Shown here piece by piece: positions 1 through 41,462 of a DNA stretch of 62,566 bases. The stretch lies in contig DAIQBH010000006.1 in assembly GCA_036781285.1 (NCBI GenBank), positions 1-62,566 on the forward strand, written 5' to 3'. Under the pieces are notes generated by a model, which saw only the letters and a program-made list of their open reading frames with translations, was not told where the DNA came from and ran no database searches. Source of the DNA: Thermodesulfobacteriota bacterium (GTDB lineage Bacteria > Desulfobacterota > Binatia > UTPRO1). The first letter of the stretch is position 1. The number at the start of each line of letters is the position of its first letter. A program made the position numbers and the translations under genes.

Positions 1-863
<863 letters not shown>

Positions 864-867
<4 letters not shown>

Positions 868-1898
868 CCGGTGACTCGATGGCCCCGGCTGCCTACGTCG
901 ACGGCGACGAGGCGCTCGCAGAGGGACCAGAGCGCGGCGCGCTCCTCGGCGGTTTCCCGGGTGAAGGGCACGACATGGGTGCGCCGCGGCTCGCGATCGA
1001 GAAAGAAGCGCCCGGAGTAGTCGCGGCCGCGGGTACTCGCCGCCAGCCACACGATCGTATCGGCCCCCTCGGCCGGGGTGCGGAGGAAGGGCCGCGTCAG
1101 TCGATGGAAGCCGGGGAGCGAGGTGCGGACGCCGGGGGTGTCGGCCCATCCCGGATGCATGGCGTTGACGACGACGGCGCTGGAGGCGAGCTCCTCCGCG
1201 AAGAGCTCGGCCAGGACGACCTGCGCGCGCTTCGTTTCGGCATAGGCCCTGACGCCGTCGTAGGGGCGCGTGCGCCAATCGACGTCGCCGAGAGCGAGTC
1301 GCTGGGTGTACATGCCGCCCGAGGAGACCCAGATGACCCGGCCGTCGGCGGACGCCGCGAGCGCGTCGCGCAGCAGCCGGGTGAGGAGGAACGGACCGAC
1401 GACGTGGGTGGCGAACGTGAGCTCGAGCCCGTCGGCCGTCTCGATGCGGGCGGCCGGCAGGAGGCCCGCGTTGTGGATGAGCACGTCCACCGGCGCCGCG
1501 CGCAGACGCGCCGCCGCCGATCGCACCGCCGCCAGCGACGAGACGTCGAGCACGTCGGCCGACACGCCGGGGTTGCCGGTCGCGGCACGCATCGCGGCGG
1601 CCGCGGCGTTCCCGCGCTCCGCGTTCCGGCAGAGCAGGACGACCGTCGCCCCGAGGCGGGCGAGCGCGAGCGCGGCCTCGTAGCCGAGGCCCGAGTTGCC
1701 GCCGGTCACGAGACAGCGCCGTCCCGTCAGATCGACGCGGAGATCGTCGGGATCGAAGGTCCACGCGTGGATGCGGAAGCCCGGGCGCGCGAAGGACAGC
1801 GCGATCGTTGGATCGACGATCGCACCGAGGGCGCGGCCGAGCAGGCGCTGCGCGTCGCGGGCGCGCTCGGTCACGAAGTCCGCGAGCCCGGTGCTCAC
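864..1898 (-). CDS. Short-chain dehydrogenase/reductase (DHRS12/retinol dehydrogenase-like)
   Basis: TGGNSGLG, HNAG, YAETK (YxxxK), MHPGWADTPG. GTG start inferred from a GTGA overlap with the upstream stop. Confidence 0.88.
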
Positions 1899-2644
1899 GC
1901 CGAGGCTCGCGTGCGGACGGTCGCGAGCCCGCCGTCGACCCCGAGGATCTGCCCCGTCAGCCAGCTCTGGGCCGGATCGAGCAACCAGGCGAGCGCCGAG
2001 GCCACCTCCTCGGGTTCCCCCACGCGCCCGAGGGGGTGCATGGCGCTCGAGGTCTTGAGCGCGGCCGCGCTGGCCGTGAGGCGCGCCGTGAGCGGCGTGC
2101 GCACCAGGCCCGGGGCGACACAGTTCACGCGAATGCCGTGGGAGGCATACGATGCCGCGGCCGCGAGCATCAGCCCCGTGACTCCGGCTTTGGCGGCGGC
2201 GATGGCCTCGTGGTTCGCGAGGCCGACGCGCGCGGCGGCGGAGGACACCAAGGCGATCGACCCTCCGTGACCCATCATCGCGCGCGCCGCGGCGCGCACC
2301 GTCGCGAAGGCGGAGGTCAGATTGGTTGCGAGCACGGCATTCCATTCTTCCAGCGTCGTGAGATGCGCCGGCTTCAGCAGCAGCGAGCCGACGCAATTGG
2401 CGACGCCGTCGATGCCCCCGTGGCGCTCCACCCCGACCTGCACGCACCGCTCCACGGCCGCGAGGTCGGTCGCCTCGAAGCGCTGCGGGGTCGCGCCGGT
2501 CTCCGCGGCGAGCGCCGCGAGACGATCGCCGTCACGGCCCGCGATGACGAGCCGCGCCCCGCTCGCGGCGAGCCGGCGCGCGAGCGCGGAGCCGATCCCG
2601 CCCGTGGCGCCGAGAATGACGTAGCTCGGAGGCGACTGGCTCAT
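1895..2644 (-). CDS. Classical SDR oxidoreductase (FabG/pteridine reductase-like)
   Basis: GATGGIG, VSS, VNCVAPGLVRT, TGQILGVDGG. The usual YxxxK reads HEAIAAAK, with Ile in place of Tyr. Confidence 0.88.
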   Translation of the reverse strand: MSQSPPSYVILGATGGIGSALARRLAASGARLVIAGRDGDRLAALAAETGATPQRFEATDLAAVERCVQVGVERHGGIDGVANCVGSLLLKPAHLTTLEEWNAVLATNLTSAFATVRAAARAMMGHGGSIALVSSAAARVGLANHEAIAAAKAGVTGLMLAAAASYASHGIRVNCVAPGLVRTPLTARLTASAAALKTSSAMHPLGRVGEPEEVASALAWLLDPAQSWLTGQILGVDGGLATVRTRASA

Positions 2645-2648
2645 GCCG

Positions 2649-3290
2649 TCATCGGCTCCGCAGCGATTCGATCGCGAGCGCGCGGATGCCGTGGTCGGTG
2701 GCGAGCACCCCGCGCACCGCCGTCGTGACCATGTCGGCGCCGTGCTTGGCGACGCCCCGCATCCGCATGCACATGTGCTCGCCCTGCACGACCGCGGCCG
2801 CCCCTCGCGCGCCCGCCTCCGCCATCAACGCGTCGGCGATTTCTGCGCAGAGCCGCTCCTGGATCTGCGGCCGGCGCGCGTAGTCGTCGACCATGCGGGC
2901 GATCTTGCTGAGCCCCACCACCTCGCCGTTCCCGGGCAGATAGGCGACGTGGGCGCGACCGGTGAAGGGCAGCAGGTGGTGCTCGCACATGCTGAAGATC
3001 TCGATGTCGCGCACCATCACGAGGTCGTCGGCTCCGCCCTCATGGGCAAAGGTCCGTGTCAGGTGCCGCATCGGGTTTTCGTGGAGCCCGGAAAAGATCT
3101 CGCGGTAGGCGCGCGCCACGCGTTGCGGCGTGTCGGCGAGACCGTCGCGGTCGGGATCCTCGCCGAGCCCGAGGAGCAGCTCCCGTACGGCATGCGCGAT
3201 CCGCGCCTCGTCGAATGGGCGGCGCTGCGGGCCGGGGGCTCCGGCGCGGATGTCCTCGAGCTTGGTGGCGACGTTCATCGATGGCGTCAT
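2649..3290 (-). CDS. folE: GTP cyclohydrolase I
   Basis: [49 protein letters not shown]. Start at 3290 fits the GAGG spacing; 3296 is an alternative. Confidence 0.96.
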
Positions 3291-3339
3291 CGTCATCCTC
3301 GTGTCTGGCGTCGTTCGAGCGTGGTGGGGATCCAGTCGG

Positions 3340-3398: not shown

Positions 3399-3623
3399 TC
3401 AGGCAGGACCGACGTCCACCCCCCACCGCTCCTGGATGCGGCGCAGGTTGACGACCTGGTAGAGTGCCGCCGACCCCACGGCGACGTAGGCGAGCCGAGT
3501 GAATGCCCCGGCGTCTCCGCCGAGAAGCCCCGCGATGGGGTTGAGTCCGAGGAGGCCGACGAGGCCCCAGTTGATCCCGCCGATCACGACCAGAACCGCG
3601 GCGCTGACATCGAGTGTTCTCAC
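3399..3623 (-). CDS. DUF378 small membrane protein
   Basis: VLVVIGGINWGLVGL...RLAYVAVGSAALY is the DUF378 pattern. GTG start follows a GAAGGGAG RBS. Confidence 0.85.
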   Translation of the reverse strand: MRTLDVSAAVLVVIGGINWGLVGLLGLNPIAGLLGGDAGAFTRLAYVAVGSAALYQVVNLRRIQERWGVDVGPA

Positions 3624-3644
3624 GAGCGATCTCCCTTCGTTCTG

Positions 3645-3700
3645 AAAACGTTCAAAACGTTCACATGGACATGGATACGCGTGAGGACTGGTTCTGTCAA
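3645..3700 (-). promoter_or_regulatory. Putative sigma70-like promoter of the DUF378-folE operon, overlapped by direct repeats (candidate operator)
   Basis: Minus strand TTGACA (3700-3695), 17 bp, TATCCA (3677-3672). Plus strand AAAACGTTC x2 (3645-3662) and CATGGA x2 (3664-3675). Confidence 0.5.
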
Positions 3701-3787
3701 TGCCGGCGCTTCCCCCGGGGGGAGGCCGCATTTCCGCCGTTATTCATGGGCTTGTGTAACGGACTTCGGTGCCCTAGAAGGCCGTCG

Positions 3788-4693
3788 ATGCCGAGGCCGC
3801 CAAAACATCCAAAACGGCCGGCAAAGGCCAGCCAGGATTTCCTCTCGACCCAGGCCTTGGCCCGGGCGGTCGGCGTGAGCGAATCGTCGATCAAGCGCTG
3901 GGTCGACGACGGCACCATCCGTTCGACGCGCACCGTCGGCGGGCATCGTCGCATTCGACGGACCGACGCGGTCCGCTTCGTGCGGGCCACGCGTGCGACG
4001 GTGGTCGTCCCGCAGATCCTCGGACTCGCCGGTCCCGTCGACCCGAAGTCCATGACGGTCGCCGGCGCCGGCGACGTGCTCACGGATCTCCTGATGCGGG
4101 GGGCGGAGCACGAGGCGCGTGCGGTGCTCGAGAGTCTCTATCTGGCGGGAGAGTCTTTCGCGGCGATCCTCGACGGTCCGTTCCGGAGCGCGCTCGACCA
4201 TATCGGTGCGATCTGGTGCCACGACCGCACCGGCATCCTCCTCGAGCATCGCGCGGTGCAGATCTGCGTGCGCGCGCTGAGCCAGCTGAGCACGCTGCTG
4301 CCGGCGTCTGCCGTCGCCCCTGCGGCCGTCGGGAGCGCGGTGGCCGGCGATCCCTACCTCCTGCCGTCGATGGCGGCGGCACTGGTACTCGCCGGCGAGG
4401 GATTCGACGCCGTCAATCTCGGCGCCGACCTCCCCGCGACGAGCCTCGCCGAGGCCATGACGCGGCTCGATGCCCGGCTCGTCTGGGTGAGCGTGAGCAC
4501 CGCGACCGACGGACCCGCGCTCGGGCGGGAGCTCGCGTCCCTCGTCGAGGCGGCGGCGGCGCGGTCCACGCACGTCGTGGTCGGAGGACGCGCGGCGACG
4601 AAGGTGCCGCTGAACGCCGCGGCAAATCTCTTCGTCGGAAGCTCCATGGGCGAGCTCGCCGCGTTCGCTCGCGGACTCCTCGCGAACGGCTAG
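3788..4693 (+). CDS. MerR/HTH_17 plus cobalamin-binding-like transcriptional regulator (CarH/LitR-like)
   Basis: LARAVGVSESSIKRWVDDG..RTVGGHRR HTH; W-x9-EH cap motif; Rossmann elements LGADLP, WVSVS, VVVGGR. Confidence 0.88.
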   Translation: MPRPPKHPKRPAKASQDFLSTQALARAVGVSESSIKRWVDDGTIRSTRTVGGHRRIRRTDAVRFVRATRATVVVPQILGLAGPVDPKSMTVAGAGDVLTDLLMRGAEHEARAVLESLYLAGESFAAILDGPFRSALDHIGAIWCHDRTGILLEHRAVQICVRALSQLSTLLPASAVAPAAVGSAVAGDPYLLPSMAAALVLAGEGFDAVNLGADLPATSLAEAMTRLDARLVWVSVSTATDGPALGRELASLVEAAAARSTHVVVGGRAATKVPLNAAANLFVGSSMGELAAFARGLLANG

Positions 4694-4977: not shown

Positions 4978-5367
4978 ATGCAGAGTGACGCAGACAAACG
5001 CCACAGGCACGAGGTCCTCGTCGTCGAAGATGATCGCGATTTTCGGGATGCTCTCCAGATGCTCCTCACGGTCCATGGGCTGGAAGTTTTCTGCGCCATG
5101 GACGGACAGGAGGCATTGGACATCCTGCATCGCGGGCTCCATCCCTGCGTGATCCTCCTCGACATGATGATGCCCCGGATGTCGGGGGCCGAGTTCCGAA
5201 TCGCGCAACAGCACGACCCGGAGCTGGAGACGATTCCCGTTGTCATCCTATCCGCGAGCGCCAACCGTGAGGAGGCGCAGTCGATGGGGATTTCCGAGTT
5301 CATGAAGAAGCCGATCGACGTCGATCAGTTGGTCGAGACCGTCTCCCGCCATTGCACACCGGCGTAA
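4978..5367 (+). CDS. Stand-alone response regulator receiver (CheY-like)
   Basis: VLVVEDD, ILLDMMMPRMSG, ILSAS, MKKPID. Confidence 0.92.
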   Translation: MQSDADKRHRHEVLVVEDDRDFRDALQMLLTVHGLEVFCAMDGQEALDILHRGLHPCVILLDMMMPRMSGAEFRIAQQHDPELETIPVVILSASANREEAQSMGISEFMKKPIDVDQLVETVSRHCTPA

Positions 5368-5791: not shown

Positions 5792-6328
5792 ATGACCAGG
5801 TTCGCATTGATCGTTGCCGTGCTTCTTCTGAGTCAAGCAAGCGCGGTGTCGGCACAGACGGCGTGTCCGACCGACGGGTCGTGCCCCACGGATGTGGGTG
5901 CCTGTCTGGCGGAGTCGTGCCCGTGTGACCGCCCCGGGAACGCTTGGAAGAACCACGGCCAGTACGTGAAGTGCGTCGTCCATCTTCGGAACGACCTTCG
6001 CAATGCCGGCTGTCTGGATGCGGAAGCCAAGCGCACCATCGCGAGCTGCGCGGCGCGTTCGACGTGCGGCAAGGAGGGCGCTGTGTTGTGCTGCACGTAC
6101 GACACGAGCGCGACCTGCAGTGACGCGACGCCGGGTAACACGATCGCAGAGGGTGTCTGCAGCAGCGACGGCACGACCGCGTGCGATACAGCCACCGACT
6201 GCATTACGGTCGTCAAGGGTCCGAAGGTCGTCCGTGGCGGCGAAGAGGCGTGTGTGGCGAGGGGCGGCACGCCCATCGGCACCGGCAGCGTTTGCGGCGG
6301 TTGCCCGGAAGTGCCGCCGGCACCCTGA
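5792..6328 (+). CDS. Secreted Cys-rich hypothetical protein with a WKNHGQYVKCV motif
   Basis: Signal peptide MTRFALIVAVLLLSQASAVSA, AGGAGG RBS, many Cys. Confidence 0.8.
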   Translation: MTRFALIVAVLLLSQASAVSAQTACPTDGSCPTDVGACLAESCPCDRPGNAWKNHGQYVKCVVHLRNDLRNAGCLDAEAKRTIASCAARSTCGKEGAVLCCTYDTSATCSDATPGNTIAEGVCSSDGTTACDTATDCITVVKGPKVVRGGEEACVARGGTPIGTGSVCGGCPEVPPAP

Positions 6329-6405
6329 AGGACGCACATAGACCTCGAAGGGGCAGAGCCGTCGCGGCCTGCCCCTCCGACAACGCGCTCAGAAGGAGAT
6401 TTCCA

Positions 6406-7530
6406 ATGTTCCGCTATCTCACGACACTCGCCGTTCATGCCGCAGTTGCCTTGGCGATCGGAGCCTCTCCGAGCTTTGCGGCCGCCGACCCGAACCTCGT
6501 CTGCCACAAAACCGTCGTGAAGCAGCTCGAGAAGTTCAAGAAGACGCACCTCAAGGTCTACCGGAACTGCATCGACAAGCTGAATCGGAATCTCATTCCG
6601 GGCCCATGCCTCGACGCGAAATCAGCGCTCAAGCTATCGGCCACCCAAATCAAAGTCGCCGGGGCGATCGCCAAGAAGTGCAACCCGACCATCCTCGCGA
6701 CACTCGGCTATCGGTCTGATTGCCAGTACGGCGCCTCGACGGCGGGCGTCGGCGGCACGTGCTTCGCGCTGCCCGCAAGCACGGCAACCGAGTTTGCCAA
6801 CTGCATGATGTGCTGGAAGGGCGCCGAGTTCTCCCGCTACGTCGGGACGCTGTACGCATCGCACGCGACGGAGACTTGTGGCGTCGCGCTCGACGACACC
6901 TCGGCCACCTGCTCTGCGGTCGGCTGCACGAGCCCGCTGCCGACGCAGCGCAACCTCGGGGACACCGGCGAGAACGACTGTCAGCGGATGATGTCCAAGG
7001 CTGCGCTCAACTATCTTCTGAAGCGGGAGAAGATTCTCGACAAGTGCATGTTGCTTGGGAACAGCTACGCAACCTGCCTCGCCGACGTGAAGGTCGACCT
7101 CCAACTTCAGAAGGCCGAGATCCAGAAGCAGACGCTCATCAACAAGTTCTGCAACAACTTCACACCCGTCGCCGATCCGCCTTTTTGTTGCCGCACCGGC
7201 GGCCCGATGCAGCAGTGCGTCGCCGCCGCGACTCGCCAGGAGTGTCTCGACTTGGGTGGGACACACAGCGTCGCGGAAGATCGCGTCTGCGACATGGGCT
7301 CGTGCGCGAACATTCCGGGTCCCGGCAAATCCCTCACCTGGTGGGAGCATTGCCCCAACAACGACCCTTGTCCCGGACCGACGCTCGGCGACATCGACGG
7401 CGTGATCCAGTGTGTGGACGACGTGGCCGACGGCGTGGTGAGCAATCTCCTCTGCTTGCAGTTTCCGAACGGCGCGGCGTGCGCGACACCTGCGCCGATG
7501 GCGACGCCGACCGCGACGCCGACCCCGTAA
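6406..7530 (+). CDS. Secreted Cys-rich protein with two Cx21C helical repeats and a Pro/Thr tail
   Basis: AAGGAG RBS, ATG at 6406, signal peptide ending ASPSFA, ATPAPMATPTATPTP C-terminus. Confidence 0.82.
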   Translation: MFRYLTTLAVHAAVALAIGASPSFAAADPNLVCHKTVVKQLEKFKKTHLKVYRNCIDKLNRNLIPGPCLDAKSALKLSATQIKVAGAIAKKCNPTILATLGYRSDCQYGASTAGVGGTCFALPASTATEFANCMMCWKGAEFSRYVGTLYASHATETCGVALDDTSATCSAVGCTSPLPTQRNLGDTGENDCQRMMSKAALNYLLKREKILDKCMLLGNSYATCLADVKVDLQLQKAEIQKQTLINKFCNNFTPVADPPFCCRTGGPMQQCVAAATRQECLDLGGTHSVAEDRVCDMGSCANIPGPGKSLTWWEHCPNNDPCPGPTLGDIDGVIQCVDDVADGVVSNLLCLQFPNGAACATPAPMATPTATPTP

Positions 7531-9030: not shown

Positions 9031-11367
9031 TCACGGGACGACCAGCAGGGTCTCGGACTGGTTCAAGGCGCCCGGGCCGGGGAACCCGGCCGAAGCATTG
9101 ATCGCCCCCGAGTTCCCCGGCACGCAGTAGGTGGAGGCTACCGTGCGATGGGGGAAGCCCGCGGCGCCCGTTCGCACGATACCGCTGTTCACGAAGCACG
9201 CCCGATGCTTGAAGACGCAGGTCTCCGCGGGCTGGCAGAACGGACATGCGCTCCCTCCGCAGTCGGCGTCTGCGAGGCATGCCCTGTACGTCGTGGTCGA
9301 GCAGTAACCCAGGACGGGGCCGGACGTGCAGATGCCCTCCTGAGTCGAATCCATGTCCGACGGGTCTTCGCGACAATCGCCATCGTGGCAGAAGCCACCG
9401 GTGCAGTCGGCGTCGACGCTGCACAACGCGCCGTCGGACACACCGCCGACGCACGCCGGCGTACAGTCATTGGGACGCACTTGGTCGGCGCAGAAACACT
9501 GATGCGAACACGTCCCACCTGGGCACTCCGAAGCGACCGTGCAATCGCGGCCTCCGCTCGCCCCTCCGACGCACGTCTTCGTGTTGAAGCCCGGTTGCGT
9601 ACACGCCACTCCAGGGGACAGCGAGTACGAGTTGGTACCAATGGGGTCGTTGTTGACGTCGAGGCCCCCACTCGGGCTCGTGATGAGATTCGAGCTCGGC
9701 GGACAGTCCATGCTCGTTACGCCGAAAAAAGGGAGGGGACCGCCGAACGGAGCCGTCCGCCGGCACGTCTTACCGGCACGGGGACCGTCACTACAGATCG
9801 CTTGGGTCACGCACGGACCATCACCCGGATCACAGTCGCCGTCGACGGCGCAGGGCTCCTTGTCGACGGCACAGAACCCGCCGCATACGGGACACGGCTT
9901 TTGCTGCGTGAGCGGCTGCACCACGACGGCACTCTGGCGTACCTTGAGCTCGCCGGCGCCGGTCAGGATGTTGACGGTCCCGACCACGTCCTCACTCAGC
10001 GTGCTGACGTTGCAGACCGCAATTCCGCCGGCGACCTGGGCAACGGGAGAACGCGCCAACCGGGTCTCGCAGAAGTCGCCGGGACCGTCGCAGACCGGAT
10101 CGCTTGGATCGTTCACGGCGCATTTCTTGTTCGGGTCGAGATGGCAATGCGGACCGGTCGCTGTCCGCTCCTTCCGGCACGTGCCCTGCCCGAGACCGGC
10201 ACAGATCGAATCAGAGGTAGTGCCGGAAGCGGCCGCTGCATCCACACCACAGGGCGAATGCGGTGCGAGCGAGCAGCTCGGGCCGGCGATGCAAAGACCG
10301 GTCACGTCGCAATCGTAGAGGTCGACGATGTACCCACTGTCCTGCACGACGTCGCCATCCGAGCTCAGTCCCGTCCAACCGTTGTCGGTATCGGCCTCGG
10401 CATCGCTCAGGACGACCATGCGCGGCTTGGTCTTGCAGAGGCACGCAAAGAATCCGTCCGGGATCTCCGCGGTTCCGCACTGGCCAGGACACGCGGAATC
10501 GTCGGGACCATCACATTCCTCGTTCAGCTGGTTGACGATGTTGTCGCCGCACAGCCCGCCTCGGGCTGCGTATTCGTAGTCGATGAGGTCGGCGGGGAGG
10601 GTGATCTCGGGCGTATCGATGAGGATCTCTTGCGCATCGATCAAGCAGGTCGCCGCCGCGCCAGGGCTCACTTGATCGGGCGTGCACACCTTGAGATCGG
10701 TGATTTGTTGCGCCGAGCACTTCTTTCCGATGCCGGCGGTGAGCTTGGCTTCGCACTTTCCGATCGCGTCCATCGTTTTCTGGTCGGTCGTCGCGCAGAG
10801 ATCCGGGCTCACGGTGCTCTTGCCCTTGATGACGGCGTCGCGGCACTTGCCGACGCTCTTCAACAGGCAAATCGACATGCGGCGGCTCTGCTTTGCGACT
10901 TCGGCCTGGCACTTGTGGTCGTCGCCGAGCGGGGGCACGAGCGTCCCATCGTACTCGAGCGCGAGGACGGTGGTCAGGAACGAGTCGTGACTTGCCTTGA
11001 TGCAGTCGTGGAGATCGGCCGGCGTGAAATCATCCCCTGGGTTCGCGTCACCGCACGGACCGGGGAACCCGATAAGCCGAAGCTCACTCGGGGTGATCGA
11101 GCATGACTTCGTCAACGCATCCGCGAGCTTGCTCTCGAGCTTGTTCACCGCGCCCGGGTCGGGCGTCGCGCAGCTCACGTCCTTGAGATTCGCGTCTCTG
11201 CACTTTTGTTCCAGTTTGAGCCGTGCAGCGAGGTACTTCTGGGCTGCTTTCGGGGCGGCGAGCGCGCACTTCACACGGCGCTCGAGGGCGTGCGCGGACG
11301 AGGCCGCACACGCGACGGCCAGCATTCCGGCAACGAGAATCGACGCTCGGGTTCTGCCGATCGTCAT
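9031..11367 (-). CDS. Large secreted Cys-rich protein (Cx21C repeats, CGDN..EECD repeat, CxGG..C..CPGGxC repeats)
   Basis: 778-aa ORF with a signal peptide. Clear paralog of 17963..20356. Confidence 0.85.
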   Translation of the reverse strand: MTIGRTRASILVAGMLAVACAASSAHALERRVKCALAAPKAAQKYLAARLKLEQKCRDANLKDVSCATPDPGAVNKLESKLADALTKSCSITPSELRLIGFPGPCGDANPGDDFTPADLHDCIKASHDSFLTTVLALEYDGTLVPPLGDDHKCQAEVAKQSRRMSICLLKSVGKCRDAVIKGKSTVSPDLCATTDQKTMDAIGKCEAKLTAGIGKKCSAQQITDLKVCTPDQVSPGAAATCLIDAQEILIDTPEITLPADLIDYEYAARGGLCGDNIVNQLNEECDGPDDSACPGQCGTAEIPDGFFACLCKTKPRMVVLSDAEADTDNGWTGLSSDGDVVQDSGYIVDLYDCDVTGLCIAGPSCSLAPHSPCGVDAAAASGTTSDSICAGLGQGTCRKERTATGPHCHLDPNKKCAVNDPSDPVCDGPGDFCETRLARSPVAQVAGGIAVCNVSTLSEDVVGTVNILTGAGELKVRQSAVVVQPLTQQKPCPVCGGFCAVDKEPCAVDGDCDPGDGPCVTQAICSDGPRAGKTCRRTAPFGGPLPFFGVTSMDCPPSSNLITSPSGGLDVNNDPIGTNSYSLSPGVACTQPGFNTKTCVGGASGGRDCTVASECPGGTCSHQCFCADQVRPNDCTPACVGGVSDGALCSVDADCTGGFCHDGDCREDPSDMDSTQEGICTSGPVLGYCSTTTYRACLADADCGGSACPFCQPAETCVFKHRACFVNSGIVRTGAAGFPHRTVASTYCVPGNSGAINASAGFPGPGALNQSETLLVVP

Positions 11368-20412: not shown

Positions 20413-23400
20413 TCACTGCTCGAGCACGACGGGTGCGGCCGGATCCGCCACGTACATGCAGAGGCGTCCGGTTTCGACGTGCCGCGCCAAGTGGTGTCCG
20501 AGGGCGGGGTGCACCCTCGTGATGGTCGCGATCGCCCGGGTGATCGCCTTCGTCACGCCGGAACGTGCGCGGTCGGCGGTGCCGATGAGCTCCGTGCCGC
20601 GGCGGGACAGATAGCGCGCGCACTCCCGTCGCTCGTGCAGGAGATCGGGACTCGGGCTTTCGTTCCGGCGCGCGCGCGCGGTGATCTCGGCATCGATCTC
20701 GATCAGGCGCTGGCGAACGCCGACGAGCGCGCGGTGGTCGGCGGCGGGGCCGCCGGCGGTCGAGACGAGCGCCGCGTCTCGCCCAAGGCTCGCGAGCTCG
20801 ATCGCCGGGACGGGAACGCCCGGCCGTTCCAAGAGACAGCGCAGATACGCCATCCCGGCGCGCGCGGGGACCGTTGCCCGGAGACCGCGGAACTCGACCT
20901 CCCAAGCGTCCTCGTCGCGATGAAAAAAGCGCGTACGTTCGGGCTCGAGACGAGGAGCCGAAAGCGGGTGGTCGTCGGGCGCCTCGCTGCCGCGGAGGAG
21001 GCGCTGCGCGTCGACGCTGATGGCGAGCGTCCTCCCGGACTCGACCAGGGCGCGACCGCGCTGGACGTCGTCGGGGTCCGCGGAGGTCAGGAGATGGCGG
21101 CCGTAGGCGAGAAGCGTGCGCGCGAGCCAATGCCGCGTCCCGCTCCGTTCCGCGAGGACCAGGGCATCCTCGAAATGGCGACGTGCCGCTGCCTCGTCGC
21201 CGAGCAGGGCGGCGAGGCCCGCGAGGTGGTGCGCGACGGGTCCGAGGAGCATGCACGGTGGGAGGAGCACGTTGTATGCCGCGAACGGCGCGAGCAGGTC
21301 GTAGAGCGTCCGCGCGGCTTCGCTATCCTCTAGGAGGACGGCCGCACCGGCGAGGTACGCCATGTTCATCGGCCACGTGCCGTCGCGGCGGACGCGCGCG
21401 CAGCCGTTCTCCATCAACGTCGCGAAGCGTCCGCGGGCGCGTTCCGGATGCCCGAGGAACGTGTCCATCCAGACCGTGAAGCATTCGACCGTCGGCGCGA
21501 GGTTCGGGAAGTTCGTGAGCACGAAGTGGCTCCAATCGGTCAGGTCCTCGGTCGTCCCACGGAGGAACCGCACGTGCTCGCGTTGCCCGCGCACGATCAG
21601 CAACATGCTGACCGCCTCGGTCGGCGCCGCCTTCGCGAGCGCGTCGTCGATCAGGCGCTCGGCCTCGTCGAGGCGGCTCATGGTGATGCTGAGGCAGATG
21701 CGGGCGGCGGCCGTCACCCAGTCGAAGTGGGGCAAGCGGATCGCACGCGCGAGTTGCTGGCAGACGCCGAGCTGTTGGCACGCTGCTTCGACGTTGCCGC
21801 GCTCGAGCGCGCTCCAGAGCCGCAGCAGTTGCCCGTTCATCCCGAGCAACCGGTCGCCCGTACGGGCAGCGAGCGCCACGATCTCGTCGGCCAACGCCGG
21901 CCGCCACTCGATGTCGCCCGGCGTCCAGAGTGCCGAGTGCATCGTCCGAAGCACGGCGGCGAGGACGCCGGGGTCGCCCGTGGCGCGCGCCAGGTCGATC
22001 GCCGCGCGCGCGAGGCCGGGCGTGCTCGGGCCCTGGCCGTGCGCGCGCTCCTCGGCGAGGCGCGCCATGAGTTGCGCGCGCAGCGCGCGCGACGATTCCG
22101 GCAAGCGTTCGAGCGCCCGTTCGAGCTCGGCTGCCACTTGAGAGGTCGAGCCCATGGCACCGAACCGCGGCAGGCGGCCGGCGAAGGCGAGTGCCGCGGC
22201 CGCGACCCGGTCCGGATCTCCGGATGTCTCCGCCAGCATCAGCGCGCGCCGGCCCGCGGCGCGCGCGCCCTTGGTATCCCCTGCGCAGCGCCGAGCGTCC
22301 GCGAGCTTTGCCAGGAGATCGTGCGTCGTCTGCGTCGTCAGCCGATGCTTCTCGAGCAGCAGGAGGGCGGCGTCGAAATGGCGGGCCGCGTCGTCGTGGG
22401 CCATCAGCAAGGCCGCGTGATCGCCCGCCGCCACGACCCAGTGCAGCGCGCGCTCGTGATCCGCGGGCGTCGCGGCACCCTCGCGGCAGTGATGGGCGAT
22501 CGCCGCGAGTGGCGCTTCCACGTCGTCTGCGCTCCACGTCTCGCCGGCTCGCGCCTCCAGCACGTCCGCGATCCGCCGGTGTAGGGCGCGGCGCTCGACC
22601 GGCGCGAGCGCGTCGTACGTCACGTCTCGCACCAATACGTGGGTGAAGCGGTAGCGCGACGGCTCCTCGTCGCTCGCCGCGACCTGGTGATCGTTCACCG
22701 CCTCGGAGAGACGCTCGCGGATCGTCCGGCCGTCCGTGCGCATCACGGCGCCGAGGACGTCCGTGGAGAACTCGTGCCCGAGTACCGCCGCGACGCCGAG
22801 CACGGCGCGGCATCCTTCGGAGAGCCGCGTCAGCCGGTCGGCGATGGCGTGGCGGCGCGTCGCGGGAATGGCGAGACGAAGCTCGCCGCTCGATCCCGAC
22901 TCCGACAGTCGTCCGTCGGTCGCGAGGAGACGCGTGACTTCGGCGACGAACAGCGGATGACCATCCGTCTTGCCGAAGATGGCGTCGACCACGCGCGACG
23001 ACGGCCGGAGCCCCGTCGCCTCCTCGACGTAGCGCCGCACGGTCGCGGCATCGAAGCGGCCGAGGCGGAGCACCGTGGCAAGCGGCAAGCTCGCGACGCG
23101 CGTCAGGTCGTCGCCGACCGCGGCGGGCGCTGTATCGTCGCGGTATGCGGCCGCGATGAGGATGGGGACGTCCGCGCACTCGGAGGCGACGAAGCGGAAG
23201 AGATGCGCGGAATCGCCGTCGGCGCGATGCAGGTCGTCGAGCACGAGGACGAGCGGCCGCCGCGCCGCGACACGCCGGAGGAACTGCGTGACGCCGTCCA
23301 CGATCTGGAAGCGGGTCAACATCGCCGGCTCCGGCTCGCTCGCCGCGGACGCCGGCCGGAGCGTCGGCGCGATCCACGCGAGCGCCGCCGTGCTGTCGCC

Positions 23401-24078
23401 CAGATCCCCGGCCAACGCCTCCGGCTCGGCGGCCTTTCGGTACGCGCGCAGGATCTGCGTCCAGGGCCAGTACGCCGGCGCGCCGCCGGCCTCGTGACAC
23501 TGGCCGCGAAGGATCGAGCAGCCGCGTGCCCGACCGAGGTTCGCGAGCTCCAACGTGAGACTCGTCTTGCCGATCCCTTCGTCGCCCGTGATGAGGACGA
23601 CCCGGCCCTCGCCGGCGACCACCCGTGCGAGCTCGTCGTCGAGCACGCGGAGCTCGGGCTCTCGGCCGACGAACGTCGGGCGCACTACGCGGTGCGCCGT
23701 CACGCGTTCGCGTCCCGTCGCGATCGCCTCGCGCACCTTCTCGACGATGCGGGATCCGTAGTCGCCTTGCTTCACCACGAAGTCGAAGGCGTCCGCCTTG
23801 ATCGCCTTGACGATCAGATCGGCGGCGTTGGAGCTCGACATCATGATCACGGGGCTCGTGATCTGCAGCGCGCGGATGCCGTGCAGGATCTGGAACCCGT
23901 CGTCGAGCGGCTGATCGTGATCGAGCACGATGCAGGCCGCGACGTTGGTCCGCAGGTACTCGAGCCCTTCGGCGCCGTTGACGACACGGTGGACGGCGAA
24001 GCCTGCGGCGGCCAGCGCCCGTTCGATGTGTTCAGCGGCGAGGCGCTCGTGCTCGACCAGCACGACGGGATCGGTCAC
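20413..24078 (-). CDS. Receiver domain plus STAND-type AAA ATPase plus helical repeats plus C-terminal putative DNA-binding domain
   Basis: N-terminal REC (VLDHDQP, SS, VKQ); Walker A GDEGIGKT; Walker B LVLDDLH; GHPLFV. GTG start follows a GAGGAG RBS. Confidence 0.85.
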   Translation of the reverse strand: MTDPVVLVEHERLAAEHIERALAAAGFAVHRVVNGAEGLEYLRTNVAACIVLDHDQPLDDGFQILHGIRALQITSPVIMMSSSNAADLIVKAIKADAFDFVVKQGDYGSRIVEKVREAIATGRERVTAHRVVRPTFVGREPELRVLDDELARVVAGEGRVVLITGDEGIGKTSLTLELANLGRARGCSILRGQCHEAGGAPAYWPWTQILRAYRKAAEPEALAGDLGDSTAALAWIAPTLRPASAASEPEPAMLTRFQIVDGVTQFLRRVAARRPLVLVLDDLHRADGDSAHLFRFVASECADVPILIAAAYRDDTAPAAVGDDLTRVASLPLATVLRLGRFDAATVRRYVEEATGLRPSSRVVDAIFGKTDGHPLFVAEVTRLLATDGRLSESGSSGELRLAIPATRRHAIADRLTRLSEGCRAVLGVAAVLGHEFSTDVLGAVMRTDGRTIRERLSEAVNDHQVAASDEEPSRYRFTHVLVRDVTYDALAPVERRALHRRIADVLEARAGETWSADDVEAPLAAIAHHCREGAATPADHERALHWVVAAGDHAALLMAHDDAARHFDAALLLLEKHRLTTQTTHDLLAKLADARRCAGDTKGARAAGRRALMLAETSGDPDRVAAAALAFAGRLPRFGAMGSTSQVAAELERALERLPESSRALRAQLMARLAEERAHGQGPSTPGLARAAIDLARATGDPGVLAAVLRTMHSALWTPGDIEWRPALADEIVALAARTGDRLLGMNGQLLRLWSALERGNVEAACQQLGVCQQLARAIRLPHFDWVTAAARICLSITMSRLDEAERLIDDALAKAAPTEAVSMLLIVRGQREHVRFLRGTTEDLTDWSHFVLTNFPNLAPTVECFTVWMDTFLGHPERARGRFATLMENGCARVRRDGTWPMNMAYLAGAAVLLEDSEAARTLYDLLAPFAAYNVLLPPCMLLGPVAHHLAGLAALLGDEAAARRHFEDALVLAERSGTRHWLARTLLAYGRHLLTSADPDDVQRGRALVESGRTLAISVDAQRLLRGSEAPDDHPLSAPRLEPERTRFFHRDEDAWEVEFRGLRATVPARAGMAYLRCLLERPGVPVPAIELASLGRDAALVSTAGGPAADHRALVGVRQRLIEIDAEITARARRNESPSPDLLHERRECARYLSRRGTELIGTADRARSGVTKAITRAIATITRVHPALGHHLARHVETGRLCMYVADPAAPVVLEQ

Positions 24079-24368
24079 GGCCGCTCCTCGCTCGCGCCGC
24101 GGCCGACGCGCATCCGGTGCGCCAGCCTGGAGGCTCTCGAGTGAGATCGGGTGAGCTGCGGAGCCCCAGGCGCAATGACACGGCACATCATTACGCTCTC
24201 CCCGTGACGCTCGCCGGCCCTCCTCTAGGGTCGGACGACGCGTGCACTGGCGGACGCGTACAGCCGGCGAGTTTCGGGAGTCAAGAGAAATGTGGCCGCG
24301 GCGCGGATCCACGCTCGGATGGGGAACGCGGGCGAGGTGGGTGAAGGGATCGTCGGGCCGCGAGTAGC

Positions 24369-27629: not shown

Positions 27630-30600
27630 ATGAACCAGCGCCACGCGTCCGATTGGCTGGTGCAACCCGCGTGCTTCCGGCTATCACGCCGTGTGGCTCG
27701 GGGGACGATTGCGGCGCGATTCGCGCACTTCGTTGCGGTGCAGCCGGATGCGCTGGCGATCGCATCGGGTGGGATGCGGTGGACGTACGCGGCGCTCGCT
27801 GACGCCGTCGCGGCGCTGGCGGAGCGCCTTCGGGTGCACGGTGACGCCGACAATCCGGTAGCGTTGATGCTGCCGCACGGCGCGCCGGTTGCGGTCGGGG
27901 TGCTCGCGGCGGCGCGGCTCGGGCGGCCGGCGGTGATCGTCGAGCCACGCATGCCGGGGGCGCGGCGGGATGCGATCGTCGCCGACGCGGGTGCGGCCGC
28001 GGTGGTCACGCTCGATGGCGCCGACCCTACCGCGTCGCTCGGGGTCACGTCGCTCGGACGTGCGGCGTGGAAGCGGCTCGCGCATCCCGCGCTCCAAGCA
28101 CCCGATCGGCCGGCGCTCGTGCTCTACACGTCGGGGTCGACCGGGACGCCGAACGGCGTCGTGTATTCCGAGCGTGCGATCCTCGATCGGGTGGTCGACC
28201 GCGACCGGTTCGCGCTCGGGCCGGGCGATCGTGTCGGGGTCTTCGGCGGCGCCGGGATGAACCTCTTCCGGACGTTGCTGCGCGGGGCGGCGCTCTCGGC
28301 ATGGGACGTCGAGCGCGATGGTGTCGCGGGCGTCGCCGAGTGGATCGCGCGCGAGGAGATCACCGTCCTCCACTGTCTTCCGACGCTCTTCCGAAGACTC
28401 ACCGATTCGTGGGAACGCACGCCCCACTTTCCCCGGCTCCGCTTCGTGAGTCTCACCGGCGAGCCGGTCGTGCGGCGCGACGTCGAGCGTTTCCGGCGCT
28501 GCTTCCCGTCGACCACCGTGCTCCTGAACGGTCTCGGCACGACCGAGGCGGGCACGTTCTGTCAGGCGGCGATCGATCCGACGACCGTGCTCGAGGGCGA
28601 CCTCGTCCCGGTGGGCCGCGCCGTCGACGGCATCGACGTGCTCGTGTGCGACGAGGCGGGGAGGGCGCTCCCCGCGGGGGCGGTCGGGGAGATCGTGGTG
28701 CGCGGCGCGCTGCTCGCGGTGGGCTACTGGCAACGGCCGGTGCTCGAAGCGAATCGCTTCGGACGCGATCCGTACGGCAACGGGCCGCGGCGCTATCGGA
28801 CCGGCGACCTCGGCCGTCTCGCCGCGGACGGCTCGCTCGTGCACCTCGGCAGGCGTGACCATCAGGTGAAGGTCCGCGGCGTGCGCATCGAGCCGGCCGA
28901 GGTCGAGGCGGCGTTGATGCGGCACCCGTCGGTGCGCCAGGCGGCCGTCATCGGGCACCCGGGAGAAGAAGGCGAGGCGCGTCTGATCGCCTGCGTCGCG
29001 ACTGCGGCATCCCGCGACGACCTCGCGACCGAGCTCGCCCGATTCGTGCGGACGCGGCTGCCGGACGCGCTCGTGCCCGACGGGTGGACGTTCGTCGATA
29101 CGCTGCCGCTCCTTCCCGGCGGCAAGGTGGATCGCCGGGCACTGCCGTTGCCGCCGCCGCGCCGCCCGCGCCGGCACGACGCGGGCATCGTCGAGCTCTT
29201 CATGTGCGCGGTGGCGCGCCACCCGGAGGCGATCGCGTATCGCTGCGGCGACGTGATCCTCGGCTACGGAGACCTCGACGATCGATCGGCCGCGCTCACC
29301 GCCCGGCTCGTCGCGGCCGGCCTCGCCGACCAGGACGTCGTCGCGATCGCGCTGCCGCGCGAGCCCGCGTACGCCGTCGCCATCCTCGCCGTGCTGCGGG
29401 CCGGCGGCATCTGTCTCCCGATCGATCCCGACGGTCCTGAGGAGCGGAACGAAGCGATGCTGCGCGCGAGCGGCGCCCGGCATCTCGTGGCCTACGATGC
29501 GTGCACGCTCGGCCGCGGCCTCGCGCGCATCGACCCGGCGGTCTCGACCGGCCCGACCGCGACCGCCACGCCGCATCCCCCGCACGACCCGTCACGCCTC
29601 GCGTTCCTCCTCTACACCTCGGGCTCGACCGGAACGCCGAAGGGCGTCGAGGTGACCGAGGGGCAGATCCTGCACCGCCTCGCCTGGGATTGGACGGCGC
29701 GGCCCTTCCGCGCCGGCGAGGTCACCTGCCAGCGTGCGGCGGTCGGCTTCGTAGACGCGATCGCGGAGTGGCTCGGCGGATTGCTCCAGGGTGTCCCCAC
29801 GGTGGTCCTGCCGGACGCGCTCCTCGAGCGCCCGCGGGATCTCGTCGCGACCCTCGCGGCGCGGGAGGTGAGCCGCATCCTGCTCGTGCCGTCGCAGCTC
29901 GGACTTCTCCTCGACACGATCGCCGACCTCGGCGCGCGGCTGCCGGCGCTTCGTCTCTGGACCGCGAGCGGCGAGCCGCTGCCGCCCGTGACGGTCGCGC
30001 GCTTCCGGAGCGCATGCCCGGACGCGTCGCTCTGGAACGTGTACGGCGCGACCGAAGCCTGGGACACGACCGCGCACGAGCTCCGCGGCGTCGAGAGCCC
30101 GGTGCCGATCGGCCTGCCGCTTCCGGGGATGCGCGCGTACCTCCTCGACGACGCGCTGGCACCGGTCGCGACCGGGGTCGCCGGCGACCTCTACGTCGCG
30201 GGCGACGGCCTCGCACGCGGCTACCGCGACGACGCCGAGCGCACGCGCGAACGGTTCCTCACGAATCCCTTCAGCCCGGGCCTCGGCGACCGCCTCTACC
30301 GCACCGGCGACCGCGCGCGCCGTCGCGACGACGGCGTGCTCGAGCACCTCGGGCGCACCGACCGCTGCGTGAAGCTCCGCGGCGTCCGCGTCGAGCTCGG
30401 GGAGGTCGAAGCGGTTCTGGCGGCGCATCCCGCCGTGCGCGAGGCGGCGGCCGTGCTGATCGACGAGCGGCTCGTCGCGTTCGTCACGCCGGCGGCGGAC
30501 ACGTTCGATCGCCCGGCGCTCGACGCCTGGGCCCGCGACCGGCTGCCGCGGGCCGCGGTTCCCGGACGGATCGTGAGCGTTCCGTCGCTCCCGCGGAACG

Positions 30601-41451: not shown

Positions 41452-41462
41452 GTCTCGTCTCC

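What the first reader, a model, noticed from the sequence alone, without database searches (positions are those of the whole stretch)
3788..4693. CarH-like regulator whose cobalt-ligand His is replaced by Tyr: candidate new light/redox sensor
Seen: an HTH, an intact W-x9-EH cap motif (WCHDRTGILLEH) and a B12-type Rossmann domain. The D/E-x-H-x-x-G loop instead reads GDPYLLP, and the residue after the cap Trp is Cys (then His). Known: CarH uses the loop His as the lower Co ligand and the His after Trp after photolysis; the related SCHIC domain of AppA binds heme. Inference: this protein binds corrinoid in a non-His mode, binds a different tetrapyrrole (for example Tyr-ligated heme), or is cofactor-free. 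It may sense light or oxidants to control the divergent folE/katG operon.
Basis: partly seen in the sequence, partly recalled or inferred. Interest (0 to 1): 0.72.

Follow-up and report, generated by a model that had tools for sequence, protein, structure and literature searches.

The report
CarH-like light regulator lacking cobalt-binding histidine
This gene encodes a repressor built like the vitamin-B12 light sensors CarH and CtMerR, but with tyrosine where the cobalt-binding histidine should be; it belongs to a large, undescribed family that sits next to light-protection genes, so it may sense light in a new way or without B12.

Summary
ORF 3788-4693 (301 aa) has a BldC/excisionase-type HTH, a four-helix bundle with an intact W-x9-EH, and a B12-type Rossmann domain. 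Its classic motif reads DPYLLP-x41-SVS-x28-GG. Tyr190 aligns exactly with the cobalt-ligating His of CtMerR (PDB 8JBS) and TtCarH.

The Tyr is not private. In 259 relatives the site is Y 226, S 11, H 9, G 5, A 4, F 3, T 1, while the other signature residues are near-invariant. The Cys after the Trp is private to this gene. There is no katG; the divergent operon is DUF378-folE-SDR-SDR-flavin reductase.

New here:
- A conserved operator of tandem 9-bp direct repeats (AAACGTTCAAAACGTTCA, 3646-3663) occurs upstream of the regulator in 65 of 86 related loci. It is also found at the validated B12 photoreceptor CtMerR.
- The divergent neighbours are photoprotection-type genes: folE, photolyase, DUF378, fasciclin and NmrA-DUF2867.

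Best reading (about 0.4): a light-responsive repressor that binds a corrinoid without His ligation, with Tyr as a plug under the cobalt. Main rival (about 0.3): a cofactor-independent repressor that gets its signal from a partner.

Verdict: a new variant of a known kind. It is worth biochemical testing.

The parts
3788..4693 (+). Regulator gene, 301 aa: BldC/excisionase-type winged HTH, then a four-helix bundle, then a B12-type Rossmann domain.
   Evidence: ORF and Pfam. The N-terminus MPRPPKHPKRP resembles MPRSKHTIQP of CtMerR. AF2 mean pLDDT is 93.5. Foldseek best hits are CarH and CtMerR.
3839..3997 (+). DNA-binding domain (residues 18-70), HTH_17 / BldC-like.
   Evidence: Pfam HTH_17 E 2.5e-8. 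NCBIfam 'excise' domain 37.2 bits and HTH_BldC 32.5 bits. PDB BldC chains 6AMA/6AMK at E 2e-7 with the family profile.
4214..4249 (+). W143-x9-E153-H154 cap motif (WCHDRTGILLEH) in the four-helix bundle.
   Evidence: Read directly from the sequence. W is kept in 96% and E and H in 99-100% of 259 relatives, and in 100% of 119 His-type CtMerR homologues.
4349..4366 (+). D188-P-Y190-L-L-P193 loop. Tyr190 (TAC, 4355-4357) stands where the cobalt-ligating His normally is.
   Evidence: HMM alignment to His204 of 8JBS and His177 of TtCarH. In the Tyr class D is 100%, P189 93% and P193 94% conserved.
4322..4603 (+). Rossmann-type B12-binding domain (residues 179-272), with G212xxxP216, S235-x-S237 and G266-G267.
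   Evidence: Pfam B12-binding 32.1 bits. These residues are invariant or nearly so.
3645..3663 (+). Operator: two tandem 9-bp direct repeats, AAAACGTTC AAAACGTTC A, lying between the promoter and the ribosome-binding site of the divergent operon.
   Evidence: One exact match to the consensus in 62.6 kb, against 0.06 expected. With up to 4 mismatches it is present within -450..+60 of the regulator start in 65 of 86 loci, at 2.17 per kb against 0.025 per kb elsewhere. The exact sequence also sits upstream of CtMerR. The unit fits the BldC 9-bp repeat AATTxxxx(C).
3802..3820 (+). Possible weaker second repeat pair (AAAACATCC AAAACGGCC) in the first codons of the regulator; a candidate autoregulatory site.
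   Evidence: Read from the sequence. It has 5 mismatches to the consensus, so it falls below the scan threshold. Proximal sites at -60..+15 are common in other loci. This is inference.
3672..3700 (-). Putative leftward promoter: -35 TTGACA (3700-3695), 17-bp spacer, -10 TATCCA (3677-3672).
   Evidence: Read from the sequence. TGTCAAG follows the distal operator by 22-35 nt in most related loci. The consensus scanner found no promoter because the -10 is weak. This is inference.
3399..3623 (-). DUF378 small membrane protein, first gene of the divergent operon. It starts at GTG 3623 with the RBS GGGAGA at 3635-3630, not at ATG 3731.
   Evidence: Pfam DUF378 E 1.4e-15. The homologue in L002 is 74 aa. 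The start was read from the sequence.
2649..3296 (-). folE, GTP cyclohydrolase I.
   Evidence: Pfam 229 bits; NCBIfam FolE 255 bits, above its cut-off. A divergent folE is present in 22 of 86 related loci.
1895..2644 (-). Short-chain dehydrogenase (SDR) directly downstream of folE; specificity unknown.
   Evidence: Pfam adh_short_C2 192 bits. All NCBIfam hits are below their cut-offs.
864..1769 (-). Second SDR (start codon uncertain).
   Evidence: Pfam adh_short 94 bits.
352..1020 (-). Flavin reductase-like protein. The true start is probably near 880. It is the last gene of the same-strand run.
   Evidence: Pfam Flavin_Reduct 64.6 bits. The same gene sits in the divergent cluster of the 79%-identical relative in L001.

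Best explanation
The protein is a light-responsive transcriptional repressor of the CarH/CtMerR type.

Proposed mechanism:
1. Its BldC-like winged HTH binds head-to-tail to tandem 9-bp direct repeats (AAnCGTTCA x2). These lie just downstream of the -10 of the divergent DUF378-folE-SDR-SDR-flavin reductase promoter, and binding there blocks transcription. A weaker site at the start of its own gene may give autoregulation.
2. The C-terminal module is still a corrinoid-binding photosensor domain. The Trp/Glu-His cap for the adenosyl group, the corrin-contacting glycines, the GxxxP element of the dimer interface and the S...GG nucleotide-tail pocket are all kept.
3. The cobalamin is held base-off and His-off. 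Tyr190, fixed by the rigid D-P-Y-x-L-P loop, sits under the cobalt as a non-coordinating or weakly coordinating plug. This is analogous to Arg69 of TsrM, Trp76 of TokK and Leu322 of Mmp10.
4. Light breaks the Co-C bond, the oligomer changes, the repressor leaves the DNA, and genes for pterin/folate supply and photoprotection are switched on.

What is shown: the domain architecture, the motif conservation, the operator and the regulon.
What is inferred: corrinoid binding, the coordination state, the light response and the sign of regulation.
For: 1. Y190 lies in the column of the axial His. All other signature elements used in the field (GxxW, EH, GxxxP, SxS/T, GG, D at -2) are 96-100% conserved in 259 relatives. 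The same residues are invariant in 119 His-bearing CtMerR homologues (signature defined in PMC11796333, and PMC9304148).
2. The closest solved structure is CtMerR 8JBS, an experimentally validated AdoCbl photoreceptor (family profile E 2.3e-43; Foldseek TM 0.76-0.79).
3. The GDPYxLPS loop is among the best conserved segments of the protein, and P189 co-varies with Tyr (93% in the Tyr class, 0 of 9 in the His class). That looks like a remodelled functional site, not decay.
4. Family-wide co-substitutions accompany H->Y: L155->R, C233->W, L189->P.
5. The same operator occurs at CtMerR itself and at 65 of 86 family loci. Its 9-bp period matches BldC-type head-to-tail binding.
6. The divergent neighbours are light-related: photolyase in 13 loci, folE 22, DUF378 21, fasciclin 22, NmrA-DUF2867 30; 68 of 86 loci have at least one. 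His-type relatives control fasciclin and carotenoid genes.
7. Rossmann-type B12 domains that hold cobalamin with a non-ligating residue under the cobalt are known (PMC9692996).
8. No LOV signature (NCRFL) was found in 1.36 Mb of family loci.
Against: - Every characterised B12 photoreceptor domain (CarH, CtMerR, AerR, photocobilins) uses a His lower ligand. From my own recollection of the CarH literature, not checked here, His mutants of CarH lose function.
- Motif conservation alone is not proof. CarA keeps the His motif and the EH, yet acts without B12.
- At equal divergence of the DNA-binding domain (pairwise identity 0.63 vs 0.64), the Rossmann domain is less conserved in the Tyr family than in the His family (0.43 vs 0.60). 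This suggests relaxed constraint.
- Position 233 lies two residues before the tail-pocket Ser. It is small in the His-type proteins (C in 119 of 119 CtMerR homologues; V in TtCarH) and is Trp here. A Trp there might fill the nucleotide pocket. I could not test this because no model coordinates were available.
- Pfam scores for both B12 domains are marginal.
- No cofactor, light or DNA-binding experiment exists for any member of the family.
Confidence: 0.4

Rival explanations
1. Cofactor-independent repressor, working like CarA or a class II LitR. The B12-like module has become a pure oligomerisation and scaffold domain. Its empty pocket is filled by its own side chains: Tyr190 where the corrin would sit and Trp233 in the nucleotide pocket, with Arg155 bridging to the helical bundle. 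The light or photo-oxidative signal arrives through another protein encoded elsewhere, either an antirepressor or a separate photoreceptor.
For: - The His ligand is lost. The site tolerates S, G, A, F, T, C and H in relatives that have the same operator and regulon.
- The Rossmann domain evolves faster than in the His family at equal DBD divergence.
- Small-to-bulky changes occur at 233 (C->W) and 155 (L->R).
- There are precedents for B12-independent CarH relatives: CarA and class II LitR, which controls folE, folM and phrB through a short LOV protein.
Against: - Known B12-independent relatives have decayed elsewhere. CarA lost the Trp cap; class II LitR lost a recognisable Rossmann domain. 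Here W, EH, GxxxP, S and GG stay invariant, and GDPYxLPS is one of the most conserved stretches.
- No conserved partner gene appears in the neighbourhoods, and no LOV motif was found in 1.36 Mb of loci.
Confidence: 0.3
2. The scaffold binds a different ligand. Candidates are heme or another tetrapyrrole ligated or stacked by Tyr190 (a SCHIC-like switch), or a pterin/folate-type molecule that would give feedback control of folE.
For: - The B12 fold has been re-used for heme in the AppA SCHIC domain.
- Tyr is a common heme ligand (general knowledge).
- The pocket shows a coherent set of family-specific substitutions (R155, W233, P189, Y190).
- folE is the commonest immediate target in the subclade nearest the window.
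Against: - SCHIC replaced the Trp/Phe cap by Leu/Arg and shifted its ligand by two residues. Here the cap and the register are unchanged.
- The tail-pocket motif S...GG is kept at 88-100%.
- An obligatory Tyr ligand does not fit with S, G, A and F variants in the family.
- There is no direct evidence for any alternative ligand.
Confidence: 0.15
3. The H->Y change is decay or a sequencing error in this one gene, and the protein is a broken CarH.
For: His (CAC) and Tyr (TAC) differ by a single transition.
Against: - Tyr is present in 226 of 259 relatives from several phyla and in 84 of 91 genomic loci.
- The reading frame is intact.
- The family has at least 548 clusters (50% identity) at E<1e-30.
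Confidence: 0.01

Closest known systems
CtMerR of Chloracidobacterium thermophilum (PDB 8JBS/8JBT), an AdoCbl-dependent photoreceptor (PMC11796333)
   Same: - Same three-part architecture, including the HTH_17/BldC-type DBD and an 'MPR..KH' N-terminus.
- It is the best sequence and structure match.
- It shares GxxW, EH, GxxxP, S and GG.
- The identical operator sequence AAACGTTCAAAACGTTCA lies upstream of its gene.
- Like CtMerR, most members have no His after the Trp.
   Different: - CtMerR and all 119 of its homologues examined have His at the axial site, in DLHE. The window protein has DPYL.
- There are family-wide switches: L155->R, C233->W, C182->G.
- Sequence identity is only about 25-30%.
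- The regulons differ: carotenoid and fasciclin genes for the His type, against folE, DUF378, photolyase, fasciclin and NmrA-DUF2867 here.
CarH / class I LitR (Thermus, Myxococcus, Bacillus)
   Same: - A MerR-superfamily DBD fused to a four-helix bundle with Wx9EH and a Rossmann B12 domain.
- A repressor that binds tandem direct repeats.
- A photoprotection regulon.
   Different: - CarH is defined by having both motifs, including the His (PMC8156234).
- CarH has a canonical MerR HTH and 11-bp repeats (my recollection, not checked here).
- It regulates carotenoid genes.
Class II LitR (PplR/PmlR of Pseudomonas), the effector of short LOV photoreceptors (PMC9758184)
   Same: - A CarH-family repressor that does not use a His-ligated B12.
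- Its regulon contains folE, an SDR (folM) and photolyase.
   Different: - In class II LitR only the helical bundle is recognisable and the C-terminus matches nothing. Here the Rossmann domain and its motifs are intact.
- No LOV gene lies nearby.
- The DBD type differs.
CarA of Myxococcus xanthus (B12-independent paralogue of CarH)
   Same: A CarH relative that represses without needing B12; it shows that motif retention does not prove cofactor use.
   Different: CarA has the opposite pattern: it keeps the His motif but lacks the Trp of Wx9EH (PMC9304148).
B12-dependent radical SAM methylases (TsrM, TokK, Mmp10)
   Same: A Rossmann B12 domain holds cobalamin base-off and His-off, with a non-ligating side chain (Arg, Trp or Leu) under the cobalt (PMC9692996).
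   Different: These are enzymes, not regulators. They have no Wx9EH cap and are not close in sequence.
BldC of Streptomyces (PDB 6AMA/6AMK)
   Same: The DBD is similar. It binds head-to-tail to 9-bp direct repeats AATTxxxx(C), which the unit AAAACGTTC fits.
   Different: BldC is a 68-residue stand-alone domain with no sensor module.

Membership tests
CarH / class I LitR (AdoCbl photoreceptor repressors) | [quoted passage not shown] | tested here: met
   W143-x9-E153-H154 is present; conserved 96-100% across the family.
CarH / class I LitR (AdoCbl photoreceptor repressors) | Classic motif E/DxHx2G/P-x41-SxT/V-x22-27-GG, whose His ligates the cobalt | tested here: not met
   The motif reads D188-P-Y190-L-L-P193-x41-S235-V-S237-x28-G266-G267. 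His is replaced by Tyr and everything else is kept.
CarH / class I LitR (AdoCbl photoreceptor repressors) | N-terminal MerR-type DNA-binding domain | tested here: inconclusive
   HTH_17 passes its cut-off (34.5 bits). MerR (22 bits) and MerR_1 (19.9 bits) fall below theirs. The domain is of the BldC/excisionase subtype of the MerR superfamily.
CarH / class I LitR (AdoCbl photoreceptor repressors) | AdoCbl-dependent oligomerisation and light-reversible operator binding | not testable with these tools
   This needs purified protein.
CtMerR-like light-responsive CBD proteins (SignatureFinder signature) | The four signature elements GxxW, EH, GxxH and GxxxP | tested here: not met
   G140xxW143, E153H154 and G212xxxP216 are present. 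GxxH reads G187-D-P-Y190.
CtMerR-like light-responsive CBD proteins (SignatureFinder signature) | Same DBD, operator and overall fold | tested here: met
   Family profile against 8JBS gives E 2.3e-43. Foldseek TM is 0.76-0.79. The operator is identical at L091.
Class II LitR (PplR/PmlR) | Only the B12-binding_2 bundle is recognisable; the C-terminus has no known domain | tested here: not met
   The Rossmann B12-binding domain is detected by Pfam (32.1 bits), by PDB profile search and by Foldseek.
Class II LitR (PplR/PmlR) | Works with an adjacently encoded short LOV photoreceptor | tested here: not met
   There is no PAS/LOV gene in six annotated neighbourhoods. The NCRFL motif has no hit in 1.36 Mb of loci plus the whole window. 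A partner encoded elsewhere is not excluded.
CarA (B12-independent CarH paralogue) | Lacks the Trp of Wx9EH but keeps the His motif | tested here: not met
   The pattern here is the opposite: Trp kept, His lost.
SCHIC heme-binding domain (AppA) | Trp/Phe cap replaced by Leu/Arg; ligand shifted by two residues; long loop blocking the B12 site | tested here: not met
   The Trp cap is kept and Tyr is in exact register with the B12 His. The beta3-alpha3 loop is short in the model, about residues 236-241. Only the first two features were tested directly.
BldC family of DNA-binding proteins | Winged HTH that binds 9-bp direct repeats AATTxxxx(C) head-to-tail | tested here: inconclusive
   The operator unit AAAACGTTC has a 9-bp period and fits the consensus. 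HTH_BldC scores 32.5 bits against a cut-off of 77. Binding itself was not tested.

The most novel reading that the evidence does not exclude
The B12-photoreceptor scaffold has been re-tuned into a new kind of sensor. One version: a cobalamin photoreceptor with a five-coordinate or Tyr-O-ligated cobalt, with no His and no DMB base on the metal, which would shift its absorption and photochemistry away from green-light CarH. The other version: a receptor for a different chromophore held by the DPY loop. In either case a family found in at least 533 species genomes would be a previously unrecognised class of bacterial light or redox sensor controlling folate/pterin and DNA-photorepair genes.
Probability: 0.3. 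Interest if true: 0.85.

Novelty: new variant of a known kind. Interest (0 to 1): 0.62.

Why it matters
B12-based photoreceptors are currently defined, and mined from databases, by two motifs, one of which is the cobalt-ligating His. This family keeps everything except that His, so motif-based searches miss it by construction.

The family is large. It has at least 548 clusters (at 50% identity) with E<1e-30, and relatives in 533 GTDB species genomes. These are mostly uncultured Acidobacteriota, Planctomycetota, Myxococcota and Binatia.

If members bind cobalamin without His, they give the first natural His-off B12 photoreceptor. That would offer a handle on how axial ligation tunes Co-C photolysis, and possibly new colours for CarH-based optogenetic tools. 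If they do not bind cobalamin, they show a third, independent route by which CarH-type repressors became B12-independent, and they point to an unknown light-signalling partner.

Separately, the operator found here (tandem 9-bp AAnCGTTCA repeats) also gives a testable DNA target for the already validated CtMerR. It links BldC-type head-to-tail DNA binding to light control.

Tried and rejected
- Clustering raw stop-to-stop ORFs from the flanks of 86 loci. The two biggest clusters were antisense or low-complexity artefacts of high-GC DNA. I used only clusters on the divergent strand that Pfam could name, then recounted with tblastn using defined queries.
- The sigma-70 consensus scan of 3550-3850 found no promoter. 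The promoter I propose comes from the conserved TGTCAAG spacing, has a weak -10, and remains an inference.
- The Halomonas PhrR paper (PNAS 2017) is not held in the library. PhrR is mentioned from memory only.
- I found no paper describing a His-less B12 photoreceptor domain or this DPY clade. A search for the His-off corrinoid protein 4JGI found nothing. The library is incomplete, so absence there is not proof of novelty.
- My recollection that AerR binds cobalamin through a helical-bundle His was wrong. His145 of AerR is the ordinary lower ligand, so that analogy was dropped.
- I scanned much of the window's other ORFs for light- or B12-related genes. The ORFs scanned gave a GH4 glycosidase, a GMC oxidoreductase, an NRPS-like enzyme, an RTX protein and AAA_16 regulators, and nothing relevant. 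About a dozen ORFs beyond 47 kb were not scanned.
- The NJ tree of 261 sequences is too rough to say whether Tyr or His is ancestral within the family. His, Ser, Gly and Ala members are scattered in the basal part.
- AF2 coordinates are not exposed, so I could not measure where Tyr190, Arg155 and Trp233 point.
- Redox sensing through Cys144 was rejected: Cys occurs there in only 3 sequences.
Full report
1. WHAT IS THERE

The ORF at 3788-4693 (+) encodes 301 aa. Pfam finds three domains:
- HTH_17 at residues 18-60 (34.5 bits).
- B12-binding_2 at 98-167 (18 bits, below the cut-off).
- B12-binding at 181-276 (32.1 bits, at the cut-off).

NCBIfam gives only domain-level hits: 'excise' at 37 bits, HTH_BldC at 32.5 bits, and CarH at 43 bits against a cut-off of 400.

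WCHDRTGILLEH is W143-x9-E153-H154. GDPYLLP is residues 187-193.

Profile alignment to solved structures places Tyr190 in the column of His204 of CtMerR (8JBS) and His177 of TtCarH. The whole classic B12 motif survives apart from the His. It reads D-P-Y-L-L-P, then 41 residues, S-V-S, then 28 residues, G-G. The published form is E/DxHx2G/P-x41-SxT/V-x22-27-GG.

An AlphaFold2 model built on 55 homologues is confident: mean pLDDT 93.5, pTM 0.88. Its best PDB matches are CarH, CtMerR (TM 0.76-0.79, rmsd 2.8 A) and the photocobilins.

2. IS THE TYROSINE PRIVATE? NO

A word-indexed search returned 512 relatives. In the best 120, down to 43% identity, GDPY(L/I/V)LPS is almost invariant. An exhaustive HMMER search of 1.84 billion cluster representatives found 3715 hits at E<1e-3 and 548 at E<1e-30.

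In an alignment of 259 family members plus CtMerR and TtCarH, the axial site reads Y 226, S 11, H 9, G 5, A 4, F 3, T 1. Every other signature residue is 96-100% conserved in all three classes (Tyr, His, other): G140, W143, E153, H154, D188, G212, P216, G266 and G267. S235 is 88% conserved.

Pro189 goes with Tyr. It is present in 93% of the Tyr class and in none of the 9 His members.

The Cys after the Trp is a private feature. Only 3 sequences have it; the usual residues are R, K, Q, H and L.

A scan of GTDB species genomes found 533 loci that encode a relative. The best 80 are all metagenome-assembled genomes, from Thermoanaerobaculia and other Acidobacteriota, Planctomycetota/Phycisphaerae, Myxococcota, Eisenbacteria and Binatia.

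3. SISTER FAMILY

CtMerR is an AdoCbl-binding tetrameric photoreceptor with dark and light crystal structures. It has the same BldC/excisionase-type DBD and a similar N-terminus. All 119 of its homologues that I collected have His.

Compared with them, the Tyr family shares G121, G140, W143, E153, H154, A156, A180, D188, G205, G212, P216, S235 and G266-G267.

It shows coherent switches:
- 155: L to R
- 189: L to P
- 190: H to Y
- 233: C to W
- 182: C to G

With the same DBD divergence (mean pairwise identity 0.63 vs 0.64), the Rossmann domain is less conserved in the Tyr family (0.43 vs 0.60). The bundle is also somewhat less conserved (0.435 vs 0.506). So the pocket has been remodelled and is under somewhat weaker constraint, but its key residues are held.

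4. DNA TARGET

In the 164-bp gap between the regulator and the divergent DUF378 gene lies AAACGTTCAAAACGTTCA (3646-3663). This is two 9-bp direct repeats. It is the only match in the window, against 0.06 expected by chance.

With up to 4 mismatches, the element occurs within -450..+60 of the regulator start in 65 of 86 non-redundant loci. Its density there is 2.17 per kb, against 0.025 per kb elsewhere. Of 94 sites, 90 lie on the regulator's strand. They cluster at about -120 to -220 and at about -60 to +15.

Loci whose regulator has His, Ser or Cys at the axial site carry the same element. The exact 18-mer also sits just upstream of CtMerR in Chloracidobacterium.

The 9-bp unit AAAACGTTC fits the BldC consensus AATTxxxx(C). 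BldC binds such repeats as a head-to-tail oligomer, one protomer per 9 bp.

In most loci the distal site is followed 22-35 nt later by TGTCAAG, which is TTGACA on the strand of the divergent genes. In the window this gives:
- -35 TTGACA at 3700-3695
- -10 TATCCA at 3677-3672
- operator at 3645-3663
- RBS at 3635-3630
- GTG start of DUF378 at 3623

A repressor bound there would sit over the start of the transcript. This promoter assignment is an inference, because the consensus scanner found no promoter.

5. REGULON

The divergent run in the window is DUF378, folE, an SDR, a second SDR and a flavin reductase. There is no katG.

Within 6 kb of the regulator, across the 86 non-redundant loci:
- folE: 22 loci, all divergent
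- DUF378: 21
- photolyase: 13, all on the divergent side
- fasciclin: 22
- NmrA-DUF2867: 30
- SRPBCC: 20
- Polyketide_cyc-Epimerase-DUF1731: 20

In 68 of the 86 loci at least one of a core set is present (these seven families plus TspO and an amine oxidase). TspO and an amine oxidase also occur in individual loci.

His-type relatives sit next to fasciclin and carotenoid genes.

This is the gene set seen in other bacterial light regulons. The Pseudomonas class II LitR regulon contains folE, folM (an SDR) and phrB.

6. MECHANISM

Shown: this is a CarH/CtMerR-like repressor architecture with a conserved direct-repeat operator and a photoprotection-type regulon. Tyr replaces the axial His in a large clade.

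Inferred, best reading (about 0.4): the module still binds a corrinoid, base-off and His-off, with Tyr190 as a plug under the cobalt. There are precedents in Rossmann-type B12 domains of radical SAM methylases, where Arg69 (TsrM), Trp76 (TokK) or Leu322 (Mmp10) fill the lower axial space without ligating. Trp76 also tolerates substitution. That would fit the Phe, Ser, Gly and Ala variants seen here.

Main rival (about 0.3): the domain no longer needs a cofactor, as in CarA or class II LitR. Tyr190 and Trp233 fill the pockets, and the signal comes from a partner. The faster-evolving Rossmann domain and the CarA precedent support this; CarA keeps its motifs without using B12. Against it, no partner gene is conserved nearby, no LOV motif occurs in 1.36 Mb of loci, and the DPY loop is itself highly conserved.

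A different ligand, such as heme or a pterin, is possible (about 0.15). However, the SCHIC-type changes are absent.

Decay or sequencing error is excluded.

7. COMPARISON AND NOVELTY

The field defines CarH homologues by both motifs. The SignatureFinder signature requires GxxH. This family fails that one feature, so it is not a CarH or CtMerR member in the strict sense, although it is their close relative.

It is not a class II LitR, because the Rossmann domain is present. It is not CarA-like, because the motif pattern is the opposite.

I found no paper describing it, but the library is incomplete. I rate it a new variant of a known kind.

Interest is 0.62. The clade is large and easy to test. 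It bears on how axial ligation matters for B12 photoreception, and it provides an operator for CtMerR as well.

Noticed in passing
L091:6829-6850 and L091:7004-7025 (Chloracidobacterium thermophilum B, CP002514.1): The validated B12 photoreceptor CtMerR (8JBS) has the exact repeat AAACGTTCAAAACGTTCA just upstream of, or at, its gene start. A second copy, AAAACGCTCAAAGCGGTCA, lies about 170 bp further up. I found no operator for CtMerR in the sections of its paper (PMC11796333) that I read.
   Followed up: partly
window 3399-3731: The longest ORF for the DUF378 gene starts at ATG 3731. That would leave only 56 bp to the regulator and would swallow the operator. Homologues (74 aa) and a GGGAGA ribosome-binding site support GTG 3623 as the real start.
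   Followed up: yes
L069 and L082 (both from MAG CALLKH01, uncultured Planctomycetaceae): One genome carries two paralogues of the regulator. One has His at the axial site (and Phe in place of the cap Trp); the other has Tyr. This recalls the CarH/CarA and PplR1-3 paralogue sets.
   Followed up: no
window 4978-5367 (+): A stand-alone response-regulator receiver domain (129 aa) lies 285 bp downstream of the regulator. It is not seen next to the homologues examined.
   Followed up: no
window 5792-6328 (+), 6181-7530 (+), 9031-11367 (-): Three Cys-rich proteins, apparently secreted, at 178, 449 and 778 aa. The latter two had no Pfam match and the 178-aa one was not scanned. The 778-aa protein has many CxxC/CxC-type repeats.
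   Followed up: no
86 family loci (e.g. L019:6776-7807, L034:2271-3851): Fasciclin-domain proteins and NmrA-DUF2867 fusion proteins are the commonest divergent neighbours of this regulator family. Fasciclin also sits next to His-type relatives (L092). Their role in a light response is unknown.
   Followed up: partly
window 20413-24312 (-) and 43765-46722 (-): Two large AAA_16-type regulators. One has an N-terminal receiver domain and TPR repeats; the other has an OmpR-type Trans_reg_C DNA-binding domain. An NRPS-like AMP-binding/PP-binding/thioesterase protein lies at 27630-31634 and an RTX-repeat protein at 39421-41709.
   Followed up: no
family alignment, positions 155 and 233 of the window protein: Arg155 (directly after the EH) and Trp233 (two residues before the tail-pocket Ser) are 96-97% conserved in the Tyr family. 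In the His-type CtMerR family these positions are Leu (97%) and Cys (100%). They may be the structural partners of the H->Y change.
   Followed up: partly
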